From: Naegleria gruberi
Taxonomy: Eukaryota
Assembly (NCBI GenBank): GCA_000004985.1
Contig: GG739296.1
Reading direction: 5' to 3' (one strand)
Length of the DNA: 2,018 bases
Shown here piece after piece: positions 1-2,018 of the stretch. The translations under genes and the position numbers were made by a program. The notes under the pieces were generated by a model. That model had not been told where the DNA came from and did not search any database. It saw only the letters and a list, made by a program, of their open reading frames with translations. Numbering within the stretch: position 1 is the stretch's first letter; each line of letters starts with the position of its first letter.

Positions 1-93
1 ATGTATATTGAAAATGCAACAATGAATTGAAGGTTTCAGTGCGTGTATTTCAAAAATATTGCATCAAAAACATTACATCAATTTGAAGTGTCA

Positions 94-100
94 TATAAAA
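94..100 (+). promoter_or_regulatory. TATA-like box (TATAAAA), a candidate core promoter element for the + strand gene.
   Basis: The match lies within tcaTATAAAAataaaaaaa. It is ~290 bp upstream of ATG 386, which is far for so compact a locus. It could equally be a chance match in AT-rich spacer. Confidence 0.25.
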
Positions 101-116
101 ATAAAAAAATGAAATT

Positions 117-140
117 GTGTAATCTAGTGTAATCAATCTA
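117..140. repeat. Imperfect 10-bp tandem repeat: GTGTAATCTA then GTGTAATC(AATC)TA.
   Basis: gtgtaatc occurs at 117-124 and again at 127-134, so the two TAATC cores are spaced by one helical turn. The second copy carries an internal AATC duplication. It sits about 20-30 bp downstream of the TATA-like box. Confidence 0.6.
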
Positions 141-150
141 ACTATTGATT
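131..150. promoter_or_regulatory. Inverted repeat AATCAAT-N6-ATTGATT (7-bp arms), a candidate protein-binding palindrome.
   Basis: aatcaat (131-137) and attgatt (144-150) are exact reverse complements. The palindrome overlaps the second copy of the GTGTAATC repeat. Confidence 0.3.
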
Positions 151-385
151 CTCAAAACGTGGCATAATATCATATTGTCATCTTTTCTGTTGTAATAAAT
201 GTTGTTGAGCTACATTGCAGAAACAGTGAATTTGTCTTTGGAATTTTCATTATCATCTCCGAAGTTGAGCATCAATCAACTCCAAAGACCGCCCGTAGTA
301 TCTCCGTATCAACCAAATCATGGATTCGTTATAAATGAACACGCGAATCAAACAAAACAAGATTCAAAAAAAAATAGCAAACACC

Positions 386-448
386 ATGATCAAACTCATC
401 ACATTCCTTCTCTTTAGTTTAACTTTCGTCTTGTTTATTTCATCATCT
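386..448 (+). other. Predicted N-terminal signal peptide (21 aa), with cleavage after SSS. If translation starts at 335 this becomes a type II signal-anchor.
   Basis: MIKLITFLLFSLTFVLFISSS has Lys3 in the n-region, the hydrophobic h-region LITFLLFSLTFVLFI, and a small polar c-region (S-S-S) that satisfies the -3/-1 rule. This was read directly from the translation. No predictor was run. Confidence 0.5.
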
Positions 449-943
449 TTCCAAACAGGACCAATTTGGCCATACGAATGGTCAACCCTTGCCTATCAAA
501 ATTCAGGTGGTTTTGTCGACACCAATCCTTCCAAACTTGCCACCTATCGTATCTTCAATTCCTATCAATTAAAAGCCGAAAGAATTGAAATCCAATTCTT
601 CAACGAACCATTACTCATCCAAATCCATGCAGGTTTCACTCAATATTCATTCTATCCACATAATAATACGTGCAATGTTGTTGAATTGGGTTTCAATCCA
701 CTTCCATATAATTGGTTACAAAATGCAACATTTGCTGGAAATCAAGTTGTAAATGGAGTTAATTGTAGAGTGTGGAAGAGATTGACTTCTACTTATTGGG
801 AAGATGAAACTGATGGAACTCCTGTTAAGGTTAATGAGAGTGACTTTTTTGTGTGGAATTTCATTTCTGGAACTTTCAAGGCAGGAAATCAAAATAAGAA
901 TTTGTTTGATATTCCAGTTTATTGTAAAAAGAATAGAAAGTAA
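386..943 (+). CDS. Secreted or membrane-anchored protein of unknown function, 186 aa from ATG 386. The ORF-track start at 335 would add 17 N-terminal residues. It has a signal peptide and is predicted N-glycosylated.
   Basis: The frame is open from 335 to a TAA stop at 941-943. ATG 386 has A at -3, whereas ATG 335 has T at -3. From 386 the protein begins MIKLITFLLFSLTFVLFISSS|FQTGP, a textbook signal peptide (Lys n-region, 14-residue hydrophobic core, Ser at -1 and -3). The mature part (~165 aa) has three N-x-T/S sequons (Asn codons at 662-664, 722-724, 833-835) and three Cys. It is rich in aromatic residues with alternating hydrophobic patterns (RIEIQFF, LLIQIHAGF, NVVELGF, FFVWNFI) that suggest a beta-rich fold. 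Codon usage (GGA, CCA, AGA preferred) matches the neighbouring P4H gene. I recognise no family. Confidence 0.65.
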   Translation: MIKLITFLLFSLTFVLFISSSFQTGPIWPYEWSTLAYQNSGGFVDTNPSKLATYRIFNSYQLKAERIEIQFFNEPLLIQIHAGFTQYSFYPHNNTCNVVELGFNPLPYNWLQNATFAGNQVVNGVNCRVWKRLTSTYWEDETDGTPVKVNESDFFVWNFISGTFKAGNQNKNLFDIPVYCKKNRK

Positions 944-949
944 ATTAGT

Positions 950-955
950 TTTATT
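950..955 (-). promoter_or_regulatory. Candidate poly(A) signal AATAAA for the P4H-like gene, ~68 nt downstream of its stop.
   Basis: + strand 'tttatt' at 950-955 reverse-complements to AATAAA. It lies only 7 nt beyond the TAA of the convergent + strand gene. If it is used, cleavage would fall inside the other gene's coding region, which means the 3' ends of the two transcripts overlap. Confidence 0.3.
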
Positions 956-1022
956 GGAATATTCAATACTATGATTCGAATAGTTTAAATGTGTCAAGTC
1001 CATCATTATTCAAGAGAAGAAA

Positions 1023-1778
1023 TTAGTATTTTAATTCTTCACGTTTCGAATACATTATATCTGATCTCATAATATACTTCACACCCTTAAAGACCTTCTC
1101 TCCACCATGCAACATGTGTTTATCATTCTGAAGGAATATCAATGCATTTCCAGCTGGTTCAGTAACCTTTCTAGTCATCAACTCCATTCGAGAATCATAA
1201 AATATCGTCGATCCACCCTCAAACTCTCCATCCAATTGAGAATTCAGATAAATAATGAGAGTGAGATAGCTCTTAGTTTTGTTCTTGTGATCCTCAAAGC
1301 TGCCATCGACGTGTTTGTTGAAATAATGCCCTGGTTTATACTTGCATAATCTCCAACGAGGATTTATACTTGCCAAATGCAATGTTCTGCCATCCTTACT
1401 CAATGTTTGTGGCAGATGTTGCTTTATACGATTCCAGACTATTTCAGTAAATTTTGGATCGTCACTCATTAAACGATCATTAAATCGATCATTATAGGCA
1501 TAGCAAAACTTATCCGCATCCTCATATCCCATCTTTTCACTCAACTCTATCATTAATTTACATTCGTCTTTTGAAAGCACTTGATCCAATACGAAACATG
1601 GTTTCTTTACTTGTTCAACCTCCTCAACTGTTTTTCTTGAAACTCGTGGACACCAATTATTCGAATCCATCAGAAGCATATTTTTTTGTATTTGTGAAAT
1701 ATTCTCATCATTAGAATCATTCAGTATTGGTGCATAGACCATCTCGTTCCATCCTGTAGGAGCAGAAAGTAAAGTCAT
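1023..1778 (-). CDS. Prolyl 4-hydroxylase-type 2-oxoglutarate/Fe(II)-dependent dioxygenase (P4Hc / 2OG-FeII_Oxy_3-like), 251 aa, soluble, with no signal peptide.
   Basis: A complete ORF runs from ATG (+ strand 'cat' at 1776-1778) to TAA (+ strand 'tta' at 1023-1025). The P4Hc N-terminal block is PCFVLDQVLSKDECKLMIELS (consensus P-x-[ILV]..FLS.eEC..LI.l). The iron-binding His-x-Asp is KPGHYFNKH156-V-D158 (codons at 1311-1313 and 1305-1307), followed by the hydrophobic strand YLTLIIYLNSQLDGEFEGGST. The second iron His is H224 in ALIFLQNDKHMLHGGE (codon 1107-1109), 68 residues after the first His. The 2OG C5-carboxylate-binding basic residue is K234 in G-V-K-Y (codon 1077-1079), in the G-x-[RK]-Y position. 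That residue is Lys in collagen, plant and viral P4Hs and Arg in the HIF prolyl hydroxylases. Residues 1-57 (MTLLSAPTGWNEMVYAPILNDSNDENISQIQKNM...) form an N-terminal extension with no hydrophobic leader. Confidence 0.85.
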   Translation of the reverse strand: MTLLSAPTGWNEMVYAPILNDSNDENISQIQKNMLLMDSNNWCPRVSRKTVEEVEQVKKPCFVLDQVLSKDECKLMIELSEKMGYEDADKFCYAYNDRFNDRLMSDDPKFTEIVWNRIKQHLPQTLSKDGRTLHLASINPRWRLCKYKPGHYFNKHVDGSFEDHKNKTKSYLTLIIYLNSQLDGEFEGGSTIFYDSRMELMTRKVTEPAGNALIFLQNDKHMLHGGEKVFKGVKYIMRSDIMYSKREELKY

Positions 1779-1786
1779 TTTTTTTT
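1779..1786 (-). promoter_or_regulatory. A8 tract directly abutting the P4H start codon (AATTAAAAAAAA-ATG), an A-rich translation-initiation context or leader.
   Basis: The + strand has T8 at 1779-1786, contiguous with the 'cat' at 1776-1778. The + strand gene has a comparable A9 tract at 366-374, 12 nt upstream of ATG 386. Confidence 0.4.
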
Positions 1787-1900
1787 AATTTTGTGTGCTT
1801 TTTTTATTTTGCACTTTTAATTATTTTACAAAGTTATTAATAGAATTTTTACTTTTTTTAGAATGATTTCAAAGTTCATCATCAAATAACCAGTTATTAG

Positions 1901-1926
1901 TTTACAATATTTACAATATTTACAAT
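1901..1926. repeat. Perfect tandem repeat (TTTACAATA) x 2.9. On the - strand it reads UAUUGUAAA, giving tandem UGUAAAUA.
   Basis: Direct reading gives tttacaata|tttacaata|tttacaat with no mismatches and a 9-bp period. It lies 16-41 nt 3' of the putative stop at 1942-1944 (- strand) and 123-148 bp upstream of the P4H ATG. Confidence 0.8.
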
Positions 1927-1941
1927 GAGGTGCTGATTAAG

Positions 1942-2018
1942 TTACATTAGTTTTTCAGCCACTTTATCCCTTAGTTCTTCAAGTTGCTCTGCACCTAATA
2001 CTCGCTTTTGTGTCTTGT
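1942..2018 (-). CDS. Probable 3' end of a gene that continues beyond the window. The last 25 codons read ...KTQKRVLGAEQLEELRDKVAEKLM*.
   Basis: The - strand frame is open from the window edge to a TAA stop (+ strand 'tta' at 1942-1944). The peptide has a helical or coiled-coil character (EQLEELRDKVAEKL). Local GC (~37%) matches coding rather than spacer composition. The stop lies 163 bp upstream of the P4H ATG, which fits the spacing seen elsewhere in the window. The call is weak: it covers only 25 codons, and two + strand frames are also open over 1958-2018. Confidence 0.3.
   Translation of the reverse strand, partial: KTQKRVLGAEQLEELRDKVAEKLM

What the first reader, a model, noticed from the sequence alone, without database searches (positions are those of the whole stretch)
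1898..1944. Tandem UGUAAAUA (Pumilio/PUF-element-like) repeats immediately 3' of a putative stop codon
Read on the - strand, the 9-bp repeat gives UAA-N18-UGUAAAUA-U-UGUAAAUA-U-UGUAAAC. UGUA(A/N)AUA is the conserved recognition core of PUF-family RNA-binding proteins, which repress mRNAs through their 3' UTRs. Two perfect copies and one partial copy in tandem, starting ~19 nt after a stop codon, is a classic 3' UTR arrangement. The same block lies 123-148 bp upstream of the P4H ATG on the same strand. A tandem promoter element for that gene is the alternative reading.
Basis: partly seen in the sequence, partly recalled or inferred. Interest (0 to 1): 0.5.

Follow-up and report, generated by a model that had tools for sequence, protein, structure and literature searches.

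The report
Small UGUA-bearing tandem repeat, Naegleria spacer
A perfect 9-base unit repeated almost three times sits in the short AT-rich gap between two genes of the amoeba Naegleria gruberi; it is a real but ordinary slippage-type repeat, and its UGUA cores fit this organism's known mRNA 3'-end signals better than a dedicated Pumilio-binding array.

Summary
The repeat is real. On the - strand it reads TAA (1944-1942), 17 nt, UGUAAAUA (1924-1917), U, UGUAAAUA (1915-1908), U, UGUAAAC (1906-1900). It never arose in 5000 composition-preserving shuffles of the spacer.

The upstream gene end is plausible. Its frame is the only open one on that strand, and GC drops from 39% to 20% right after the stop. 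It is unconfirmed, because no protein in the searched collections ends with that peptide.

I could obtain no second copy of the repeat region, so conservation and copy-number variation stay untested.

Published direct RNA sequencing of N. gruberi reports a median 3' UTR of 39 nt. It also reports UGUA as an upstream auxiliary element 20-50 nt before cleavage sites, with U-rich sequence downstream. The repeat gives three UGUA cores (four with AUGUAA at the stop), followed by AAUAAC and UUAUUU.

My best reading (about 0.4) is a young slippage repeat inside a 3'-end-processing region, acting if at all as UGUA upstream elements. The rivals are a neutral repeat (0.3), a promoter element of the oxygenase gene (0.15) and PUF sites (0.12). 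Interest is low.

The parts
1945..2016 (-). Putative last 24 codons of an upstream gene (...KTQKRVLGAEQLEELRDKVAEKLM). The gene runs off the scaffold end.
   Evidence: It is the only open - strand frame. GC is 39.2% against 19.6% in the spacer. The codon-usage score is inconclusive. No matching protein was found.
1942..1944 (-). Putative stop codon TAA. Together with the preceding Met codon it reads AUGUAA, which adds a fourth UGUA at 1946-1943.
1900..1926 (-). The 9-bp tandem repeat: (AU)UGUAAAUAU UGUAAAUAU UGUAAAC. It carries three UGUA cores at 1924, 1915 and 1906, two perfect UGUAAAUA 8-mers, and a last copy that reads TTGTAAAC.
   Evidence: TRF gives 2.9 copies at 100% identity. The repeat appeared in 0 of 5000 shuffles.
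1893..1898 (-). AAUAAC, a one-mismatch variant of the AAUAAA poly(A) hexamer, starting 8 nt after the start of the last UGUA. It is a candidate poly(A) signal by inference only.
   Evidence: Position. The expected geometry (hexamer 15-20 nt before cleavage, UGUA 20-50 nt before cleavage) is from PMC11529991.
1876..1889 (-). U/GU-rich stretch UUAUUUGAUGAUGA. It is a candidate downstream element and the candidate cleavage region.
   Evidence: UUAUUU at 1889-1884. UUAUUU is one of the downstream-element hexamers scored in PMC11529991. The role is inferred.
1784..1853 (-). Alternative, more canonical poly(A) hexamers further downstream: AGUAAA 1853-1848, AUUAAA 1821-1816, AAUAAA 1808-1803 and AUUAAA 1789-1784, with one more UGUA at 1830. 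If one of these is used, the 3' UTR would be about 105-150 nt and would overlap the promoter of the oxygenase gene.
1023..1778 (-). Downstream gene, a P4H-like 2OG-Fe(II) oxygenase of 251 aa, identical to N. gruberi EFC35382.1 / NAEGRDRAFT_76964. The repeat lies 122-146 nt upstream of its ATG.

Best explanation
The element is a young replication-slippage triplication of a 9-bp unit (UGUAAAUAU). It lies in the 163-bp, 20%-GC spacer between a probable upstream gene and a P4H-like oxygenase gene of Naegleria gruberi.

It sits 18-44 nt past the probable stop codon, so it lies in the 3' UTR and poly(A)-site region of the upstream transcript. If it has a function, the most likely one is that its three UGUA cores (four counting AUGUAA at the stop) act as upstream auxiliary elements of cleavage and polyadenylation. 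These are the CFIm-type UGUA elements that N. gruberi is reported to use. They would help the 3'-end machinery recognise a weak, non-canonical signal (AAUAAC at 1898-1893, then UUAUUU at 1889-1884). Cleavage would fall near 1885-1870, giving a 3' UTR of about 55-70 nt.

Shown: the repeat, its non-random tandem nature, the organism, the gene downstream, and the motif geometry. Taken from the literature: that N. gruberi uses UGUA this way. Inferred: that the upstream gene is real, where cleavage occurs, and that these particular UGUAs are used.
For: (1) The repeat has perfect copies and is absent from shuffles, and the window holds 3 TRF arrays against about 0.02 expected. Small tandem duplications are therefore an active mutational process here.

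(2) The window is an N. gruberi NEG-M scaffold.

(3) Direct RNA sequencing of N. gruberi (PMC11529991) reports a median 3' UTR of 39 nt and a poly(A) hexamer 15-20 nt before cleavage. It also reports UGUA enriched 20-50 nt before cleavage and recovered by a classifier as the upstream element, with U-rich sequence downstream.

(4) Geometry: UGUA starts at 1924, 1915 and 1906 lie 26, 17 and 8 nt before the AAUAAC hexamer. UUAUUU follows 4 nt after the hexamer. With cleavage 15-20 nt after the hexamer, the UGUAs fall about 25-50 nt upstream of it.

(5) Strand bias: the spacer has 5 UGUA on the - strand and 0 on the + strand. This stays 3 against 0 after collapsing the repeat.

(6) GC steps from 39% to 20% at the stop, and this is the only open frame.

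(7) The RNA is unstructured (z = 0.29), as expected for a single-strand binding site.

(8) Clusters of at least 3 UGUA within 45 nt after stop codons occur in 3 of 41 genes of N. lovaniensis and N. fowleri, against 1 on the antisense strand and 0 in 5' flanks.

(9) There is a precedent in humans: multiple UGUAN motifs bound by CFIm drive sites that lack a canonical hexamer (PMC2876958), and twin UGUA motifs are functional (PMC10476966).
Against: The upstream gene is unconfirmed. No protein in the collection ends with the 24-aa peptide, and the codon-usage score is intermediate.

The nearest hexamer, AAUAAC, is not a canonical signal. The reported signals for N. gruberi are AAUAAA and AUUAAA, and the first of those is 85-115 nt beyond the repeat. 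At that distance the repeat's UGUAs would be too far upstream for the 20-50 nt window.

The two complete genes in the window have no UGUA in their 3' flanks, so UGUA is not obligatory.

My test on 41 genes of sister species showed only 5.35 against 3.2 UGUA per kb and no strand asymmetry. That test was underpowered and used unverified gene ends.

Perfect copy identity suggests a recent origin, which is equally compatible with no function at all. The presence of a CFIm25 orthologue in Naegleria was not checked.
Confidence: 0.4

Rival explanations
1. The element is a neutral micro/minisatellite. A 9-bp unit in very AT-rich spacer DNA was triplicated by replication slippage and has no selected function. 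Its matches to UGUA and PUF motifs are incidental.
For: The copies are perfect, which points to a recent event. The same 2-kb window carries two other TRF arrays (50-81 and 1466-1494). The identical 25-mer arose independently inside a coding ORF of an unrelated 25%-GC viral contig, where it encodes FTIFTIFT on the other strand. This shows that such AT-rich units expand readily. No conservation could be shown. AT-rich 8-mers match many published consensus motifs.
Against: A random 9-mer of this composition contains UGUA on a given strand only about 6% of the time, and a full UGUAHAUA about 0.2-0.5% of the time (my estimate from the base frequencies). UGUA shows strand bias in the spacer even after collapsing the repeat. 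The position fits the known poly(A) architecture (PMC11529991).
Confidence: 0.3
2. The element is a promoter or upstream regulatory element of the P4H-like oxygenase gene. The last copy reads TTGTAAAC, 122-129 nt upstream of the ATG, and the two extra copies are a tandem amplification of a transcription-factor site.
For: The homologous oxygenase genes of N. lovaniensis and N. fowleri each carry one sense-strand TTGTAAAC, 96 and 69 nt upstream of their ATG. There the upstream neighbour is divergent, so the motif cannot be a 3' UTR element. TGTAAAC is rare, with 10 hits in 82.8 kb on both strands. Three of those ten lie within 100 nt upstream of an ATG on the sense strand. The window and N. fowleri also share an A-rich block, AAAGTAAAAA..TTCNATTAA, about 46-52 nt after the motif (local alignment reached by 13 of 1000 shuffles). 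The 99 nt proximal to the ATG differ at only 1 base from a 98%-identical metagenome allele.
Against: Those genes are orthologues of the other N. gruberi paralogue (P0002), not of the window gene. The two sister-species sites are not independent, and their spacers are not significantly alignable (129 of 1000 shuffles). A fourth homologue (L011) has no such motif in its 77-nt spacer. The motif was chosen after seeing the data. Nothing is known about Naegleria promoters.
Confidence: 0.15
3. The two UGUAAAUA 8-mers, plus a degenerate third, are Pumilio/PUF response elements in the 3' UTR of the upstream mRNA. A classical N. gruberi PUF protein binds them to repress or destabilise that mRNA. This could coexist with the poly(A)-auxiliary reading, because the sites would remain in the mature 3' UTR.
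For: The match to UGUANAUA is exact and occurs twice. The RNA is unstructured. The repeat lies downstream of a probable stop and before any canonical poly(A) hexamer. PUF proteins are ancestral to all eukaryotes (PMC7325665), and a PUM repeat from N. gruberi is on record (PMC6351103). The full 8-mer is much less likely by chance than UGUA alone.
Against: The two sites are copies from one duplication, so this is one motif occurrence found by eye in 2 kb. There is no evidence of binding, of conservation, or of 8-mer enrichment. In 41 sister-species genes the 8-mer occurs 2 times in sense 3' flanks, 1 time antisense and 2 times in 5' flanks, and TGTAAA[C/T] is not enriched in 3' flanks. N. gruberi 3' UTRs are so short that the authors of PMC11529991 note minimal room for RNA-binding proteins. 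The specificity of Naegleria PUFs is unknown. The upstream gene is unconfirmed.
Confidence: 0.12
4. The region encodes a C/D-box snoRNA, as suggested by the Rfam SNORD63-like hit at 1887-1955 on the - strand.
For: There is a full-length but weak Rfam match of 23.2 bits (E 0.28 for the window, 0.034 for the 239-nt sub-search).
Against: The score is far below the gathering threshold of 43 bits. The C box reads UAAUGUA rather than RUGAUGA and the D box reads CUGG rather than CUGA. Two of the four terminal-stem pairs are non-standard, and the region has no significant fold.
Confidence: 0.01

Closest known systems
UGUA upstream sequence elements of cleavage/polyadenylation sites. These are CFIm-bound in metazoans and are reported as the upstream auxiliary element in Naegleria gruberi (Sajek et al. 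2024, PMC11529991). Related cases are the multi-UGUAN non-canonical PAPOLG site (cited in PMC2876958) and the twin UGUAYUGUA motif (PMC10476966).
   Same: There are several closely spaced UGUA cores on the sense strand just downstream of a stop. An AAUAAA-like hexamer and U-rich sequence follow. The spacing fits the 20-50 nt window if AAUAAC is the signal. The organism is one in which this element class was demonstrated statistically.
   Different: The hexamer is a variant (AAUAAC), and the cleavage site is unmapped. The UGUAs come from one recent tandem duplication with 9-nt spacing rather than being independent sites. The reader protein in Naegleria was not identified here.
Pumilio/PUF response element (PBE/NRE, UGUANAUA) in 3' UTRs
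   Same: There are two exact 8-mer matches, in single-stranded AU-rich context, downstream of a probable stop codon.
   Different: There is no evidence of a cognate PUF specificity, of conservation or of regulation. The sites are 1 nt apart and are copies of each other. Very short 3' UTRs in this organism leave little regulatory space.
Slippage-derived AT-rich micro/minisatellites in intergenic DNA
   Same: The copies are perfect and head-to-tail with a short period. The context is AT-rich. Other small tandem arrays occur in the same window, and the identical 25-mer arose independently elsewhere (L001).
   Different: The unit happens to carry a motif with a known role at exactly this kind of position. 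Copy-number polymorphism was not testable.

Membership tests
PUF/Pumilio response element | 8-nt core UGUANAUA on the mRNA strand | tested here: met
   UGUAAAUA at 1924-1917 and 1915-1908 on the - strand. The third copy, UGUAAACU, breaks the AUA half.
PUF/Pumilio response element | Located in the 3' UTR of a mature mRNA | tested here: inconclusive
   An open frame and a GC step support a gene end at 1942. No protein with this C-terminus was found, and no transcript data were available.
PUF/Pumilio response element | The organism has a classical PUF whose repeats specify UGUANAUA | not tested
   The literature shows only that PUF proteins are pan-eukaryotic (PMC7325665) and that N. gruberi has PUM repeats (PMC6351103). 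Their recognition code was not examined.
PUF/Pumilio response element | Conservation in orthologous 3' UTRs, or enrichment of the 8-mer in 3' UTRs of the genome | tested here: inconclusive
   No second copy of the region was obtainable. In 41 sister-species genes the 8-mer occurs 2 times in sense 3' flanks, 1 time antisense and 2 times in 5' flanks.
PUF/Pumilio response element | Binding by a PUF protein and an effect on mRNA stability or translation | not testable with these tools
   This needs EMSA, RIP or a reporter assay.
UGUA upstream poly(A) auxiliary element (CFIm-type) | UGUA tetramer(s) on the pre-mRNA strand | tested here: met
   UGUA starts at 1946, 1924, 1915 and 1906 on the - strand, with 0 on the opposite strand of the spacer.
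UGUA upstream poly(A) auxiliary element (CFIm-type) | Position about 20-50 nt upstream of a cleavage site, upstream of an A[A/U]UAAA hexamer | tested here: inconclusive
   The position fits if AAUAAC (1898-1893) is the signal. The first reported-type hexamer, AUUAAA, is at 1821 and AAUAAA is at 1808. The cleavage site is unmapped.
UGUA upstream poly(A) auxiliary element (CFIm-type) | The organism uses UGUA as an auxiliary element | tested here: inconclusive
   The published direct-RNA data for N. gruberi say it does (PMC11529991). My own check on 41 genes of sister species was underpowered, at 5.35 against 3.2 per kb with no strand bias.
UGUA upstream poly(A) auxiliary element (CFIm-type) | U-rich or GU-rich element downstream | tested here: met
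   UUAUUUGAUGAUGA at 1889-1876. This is a weak criterion in 20%-GC DNA.
Slippage-type tandem repeat (micro/minisatellite) | Head-to-tail copies beyond the composition expectation | tested here: met
   TRF gives 2.9 copies at 100% identity. The repeat appeared in 0 of 5000 spacer shuffles and 3 of 1000 window shuffles.
Slippage-type tandem repeat (micro/minisatellite) | Copy-number variation between strains or alleles | not testable with these tools
   The only near-identical contig (L002) ends 23 nt short of the repeat. The N. gruberi main scaffold is not retrievable.
Promoter element of the oxygenase gene | The same motif upstream of homologous genes | tested here: inconclusive
   TTGTAAAC is present at -96 in N. 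lovaniensis and at -69 in N. fowleri. It is absent in L011. Those two genes are orthologues of the other paralogue, and the alignments are mostly not significant.
C/D-box snoRNA | C box RUGAUGA, D box CUGA, terminal stem, and a score above the Rfam threshold | tested here: not met
   The score is 23.2 bits against a gathering score of 43. The boxes are degenerate and two of the four terminal-stem pairs are non-standard.

The most novel reading that the evidence does not exclude
The two perfect UGUAAAUA units are genuine Pumilio-type response elements, amplified in tandem, and a Naegleria PUF protein reads them. This would be the first identified PUF target in Heterolobosea. It would also be an example of one sequence serving both nuclear poly(A)-site definition (UGUA) and cytoplasmic PUF control within an ultrashort 3' UTR.
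Probability: 0.1. Interest if true: 0.4.

Novelty: new member of a known kind. Interest (0 to 1): 0.15.

Why it matters
The finding matters little on its own, because it is one small repeat in one spacer of a protist genome. If the poly(A) reading holds, it would show how replication slippage can multiply UGUA auxiliary elements next to a weak poly(A) signal in a genome with very short 3' UTRs. That is a simple route for evolving or tuning 3'-end sites. It is also a caution about motif matching: in 20%-GC DNA the same 8-mer fits the PUF consensus, a UGUA poly(A) element and a possible promoter motif. The case can be settled quickly with already published N. gruberi direct-RNA reads.

Tried and rejected
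**Extending the contig or finding another copy of the repeat**
- Exact look-ups of the window proteins and of their N. gruberi main-scaffold twins found nothing on record.
- The 98%-identical ENA contig L002 stops at window 1877, 23 nt short of the repeat.
- A metagenome scan with the repeat flank found 0 hits. A protein-guided metagenome scan found no relatives.

**Identifying the upstream gene**
- The 24-aa peptide was too short for the homologue search.
- I doubled it to 48 aa as a workaround. It found only two chance-level hits (E about 5).
- Pfam, NCBIfam and PDB gave nothing meaningful.

**Synteny**
- Neither the oxygenase homologues nor the orthologues of the neighbouring DUF8395 gene keep this gene order in N. 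lovaniensis, N. fowleri or a metagenome relative. No orthologous spacer exists to compare.

**The 25-mer match in IMG/VR (L001)**
- It lies inside a 436-aa ORF of a 25%-GC viral contig, on the other strand.
- I rejected it as coincidence.

**Motif statistics on 41 N. lovaniensis and N. fowleri genes**
- UGUA is only mildly higher in 3' flanks, with no strand asymmetry.
- TGTAAA[C/T] is not enriched in 3' flanks.
- The sample is too small, and the gene ends are unverified, so this decides nothing.

**Other checks**
- Promoter footprint: TTGTAAAC is shared with two homologues but not a third, and most alignments are not significant. I kept it only as a lead.
- snoRNA: the Rfam hits are far below threshold and the boxes are wrong. 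Rejected.
- RNA structure: none (z = 0.29).
- Literature searches for Naegleria promoters, for CFIm25 in Naegleria and for these gene identifiers found nothing.
- The supplementary 3' UTR tables of PMC11529991 are not held.

Full report
**What is there**

The window is AT-rich, at 25-39% GC. On the - strand, positions 1944-1900 read TAA CTTAATCAGCACCTCAT TGTAAATAT TGTAAATAT TGTAAAC. The two perfect UGUAAAUA 8-mers are at 1924-1917 and 1915-1908, and the truncated third copy, UGUAAAC, is at 1906-1900. Tandem Repeats Finder reports 1901-1926, period 9, 2.9 copies, 100% identity.

The block lies 122-146 nt upstream of the ATG (1778) of a 251-aa - strand gene.

**Is it more than chance?**

A perfect repeat of this kind occurred in 0 of 5000 dinucleotide-preserving shuffles of the 163-nt spacer and in 3 of 1000 shuffles of the whole window. 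The window has three TRF arrays with score at least 50, where shuffles give about 0.02. The tandem arrangement is therefore a real duplication event. This also means the two perfect PUF-like sites are copies of one another and count as one motif occurrence. TGTAAATA is expected 0.23 times in the window.

**Where the window comes from**

The two complete proteins of the window are identical to Naegleria gruberi NEG-M proteins EFC35382.1 (the oxygenase) and EFC35381.1. The latter is a 185-aa secreted-looking protein of family DUF8395. Both are recorded on a contig of exactly 2018 bp, so the window is a whole small scaffold. Near-identical copies of both genes lie on a 396,166-bp scaffold of the same assembly. 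The DNA of that scaffold could not be retrieved.

A 98%-identical metagenome contig (L002) covers both genes but ends at window position 1877, 23 nt before the repeat. Two metagenome scans found nothing. Gene order around the oxygenase homologues and around the DUF8395 orthologues differs in N. lovaniensis, N. fowleri and a metagenome relative. No orthologous or allelic copy of the repeat region was available, so conservation and copy-number variation remain untested.

**Does a gene end at 1942?**

The frame ending in ...KTQKRVLGAEQLEELRDKVAEKLM* is open for all 24 codons to the scaffold end, while the other two - strand frames have stops. GC is 39.2% in 1945-2018 and 19.6% in 1779-1941, compared with 34-36% in the two known coding regions. 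That is the step expected at a gene end.

A codon-usage score is intermediate, at -0.8. In-frame coding windows score 11.5 +/- 3.2 and spacer windows -9.8 +/- 9.2. A search with the peptide, doubled to meet the length minimum, found no protein with this C-terminus in a collection that contains the N. gruberi proteome. Pfam, NCBIfam and PDB gave nothing useful. The gene end is plausible, at perhaps 60-65%, but unconfirmed. It may be an unannotated or differently modelled terminal exon.

**What the organism is known to do with UGUA**

Sajek et al. 2024 (PMC11529991) mapped N. gruberi mRNA 3' ends by nanopore direct RNA sequencing. They report:
- The median 3' UTR is 39 nt.
- AAUAAA is the top poly(A) hexamer and AUUAAA is a weaker one.
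- The hexamer lies about 15-20 nt before the cleavage site.
- UGUA is enriched 20-50 nt before cleavage. Their classifier independently recovered it as the upstream auxiliary element that separates genuine from coding-region AAUAAA.
- U-rich sequence lies downstream.
- 3' UTRs this short leave little room for RNA-binding-protein sites.

In humans, clusters of UGUAN bound by CFIm can drive poly(A) sites that lack a canonical hexamer (PAPOLG, cited in PMC2876958). A twin UGUAYUGUA motif is sufficient to confer CFIm dependence (PMC10476966).

**Anatomy in that light**

On the - strand the spacer has UGUA at 1946 (AUGUAA, Met codon plus stop), 1924, 1915, 1906 and 1830, and none on the + strand. 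The count is 5 against 0, and 3 against 0 after collapsing the repeat. No A[A/U]UAAA lies between the stop and the repeat.

Eight nucleotides after the start of the last UGUA comes AAUAAC (1898-1893), then UUAUUUGAUGAUGA (1889-1876). If AAUAAC serves as a weak signal, cleavage near 1885-1870 would put the three repeat UGUAs about 25-50 nt upstream. The 3' UTR would then be about 55-70 nt, a good fit to the published geometry.

More canonical hexamers lie further on: AGUAAA at 1853, AUUAAA at 1821, AAUAAA at 1808 and AUUAAA at 1789. If one of these is used, the 3' UTR is 105-150 nt. The repeat is then ordinary 3' UTR sequence, too far upstream for the 20-50 nt window. The RNA has no significant structure (z = 0.29).

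**My own checks in sister species**

In 41 called genes from four loci of N. lovaniensis and N. fowleri, UGUA is 5.35 per kb in the 120 nt after stops. It is 3.2 per kb in gene bodies and 2.85 per kb in 5' flanks, but there is no sense/antisense difference. Clusters of at least 3 UGUA within 45 nt occur after 3 of 41 stops, against 1 antisense and 0 in 5' flanks. One example is TAA..UGUACUGUGUAAAUAUAUUGUAGC after L003 gene 11039-11848.

The PUF 8-mer occurs 2 times in sense 3' flanks, 1 time antisense and 2 times in 5' flanks. TGTAAA[C/T] is not enriched in 3' flanks. These samples are too small, and the gene ends too uncertain, to decide anything. They neither contradict the published result nor support a PUF regulon.

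**The promoter alternative**

The last copy reads TTGTAAAC. The oxygenase homologues of N. lovaniensis and N. fowleri each have one sense-strand TTGTAAAC, 96 and 69 nt before their ATG. Their upstream neighbour is divergent, so there the motif cannot be a 3' UTR element. TGTAAAC is rare (10 hits in 82.8 kb on both strands), and 3 of the 10 lie within 100 nt upstream of an ATG. The window and N. fowleri also share an A-rich block downstream of the motif (13 of 1000 shuffles).

Several points count against this reading:
- Those genes are orthologues of the other N. gruberi paralogue.
- The two species are not independent.
- Their spacers do not align significantly.
- A fourth homologue lacks the motif.
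- The motif was picked after seeing the data.

I keep this as a lead at about 0.15.

**Other readings**

The exact 25-mer also occurs in an IMG/VR contig, but inside a 436-aa ORF on the opposite strand of a 25%-GC virus-like contig. This is a coincidence, and it shows how easily such AT-rich units expand. Weak Rfam C/D-box snoRNA hits (23 bits against a threshold of 43) have degenerate boxes and a mostly mismatched terminal stem, so I rejected them.

**Verdict**

The repeat is real and arose by tandem duplication, probably recently. Its most likely setting is the 3' UTR and poly(A)-site region of an unconfirmed upstream gene.

The only function for UGUA at such a position that has experimental support in this organism is as an upstream auxiliary element of cleavage and polyadenylation. 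I commit to that reading at about 0.4. A functionless slippage repeat follows at about 0.3, a promoter element at about 0.15 and PUF sites at about 0.12. The PUF reading is not exclusive of the first.

The PUF interpretation is a consensus match without supporting evidence. It is not excluded, because the 8-mer is exact, PUF proteins are universal in eukaryotes (PMC7325665) and N. gruberi has PUM repeats (PMC6351103).

This is an ordinary instance of known kinds of sequence and the interest is low. It can be resolved by aligning to the main N. gruberi scaffold and mapping the already published direct-RNA reads.

Noticed in passing
window 1-2018: The window is an entire 2018-bp unplaced scaffold of Naegleria gruberi NEG-M. 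Both of its genes have near-identical twins on a 396,166-bp scaffold. The oxygenase twin there is modelled as only 181 aa, identical and then truncated. The accessions of the two twins are four apart rather than adjacent. This suggests a gap, a haplotype difference or a misassembly at that locus.
   Followed up: partly
window 1-200, + strand: The left-hand AT-rich region (25% GC) has five + strand UGUA (positions 2, 44, 118, 128, 191) against one on the - strand. It also has a direct repeat GTGTAATC x2 at about 116-134 and UGUAAUAAA at 191-199 (with AAUAAA also at 100). This looks like the 3' end of another + strand transcript, or a second UGUA + AAUAAA site. A 14-bp tandem array lies at 50-81.
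   Followed up: partly
window 939-944, + strand: The stop codon of the DUF8395 gene (TAA at 941-943) is embedded in AGUAAA. This may be a 'dual-use' stop and poly(A) signal of the type described for N. gruberi, although that paper describes AAUAAA as the main overlapping hexamer.
   Followed up: no
window 944-1022 versus L002: The 79-nt spacer between the two convergent genes differs from the 98%-identical metagenome allele by an indel of about 55 bp that also alters the last oxygenase codons. The flanking coding DNA is 97-100% identical. With 3' UTRs of about 40 nt, the two convergent transcripts must abut or overlap. The only AAUAAA after the oxygenase stop (955-950, - strand) lies 68 nt downstream, next to the other gene's stop.
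   Followed up: partly
window 1466-1494 (inside the oxygenase gene): A 12-bp tandem array (2.5 copies) encodes NDRFNDRL. The same peptide duplication is present in the paralogue and in the N. lovaniensis, N. fowleri and metagenome homologues. It is therefore an old, conserved coding repeat rather than a recent slip.
   Followed up: partly
window 386-943, + strand: The neighbouring 185-aa protein has a signal-peptide-like N-terminus and belongs to DUF8395 (PF28435). Its orthologues in N. lovaniensis and N. fowleri are 59-64% identical, and there is a very weak Ependymin-like Pfam hit (E 0.07). Its function is unknown.
   Followed up: partly
L003 9904-9911 and L004 9931-9938: TTGTAAAC lies 96 and 69 nt upstream of the orthologous oxygenase genes of N. 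lovaniensis and N. fowleri. Three of the ten TGTAAAC occurrences in 82.8 kb of Naegleria DNA lie within 100 nt upstream of a start codon on the sense strand. This is a possible Naegleria promoter motif worth a genome-wide test.
   Followed up: partly
L003 11849-11977: The N. lovaniensis gene next to the oxygenase orthologue has UGUACUGUGUAAAUAUAUUGUAG directly after its stop. A 34-bp tandem duplication (11910-11977) duplicates a UGUACAUA unit. This is another case of tandem duplication multiplying UGUA-containing units in a Naegleria 3' flank.
   Followed up: no
L001 7798-7822: An IMG/VR contig (27.4 kb, about 25% GC) contains the identical 25-mer. It lies inside a 436-aa ORF on the other strand, where it encodes FTIFTIFT in a hydrophobic C-terminal tail. 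The same ORF also has a five-fold NQSYHNPKTN peptide repeat. It is unrelated to the window.
   Followed up: yes
L011 2-307: In a JGI metagenome relative, the oxygenase homologue is preceded on the same strand, 77 nt upstream, by the end of a casein-kinase-I-like gene whose stop sits in UUGUAAUUG. The layout is the same (gene end close upstream of the oxygenase), but the neighbour is different and there is no repeat.
   Followed up: partly
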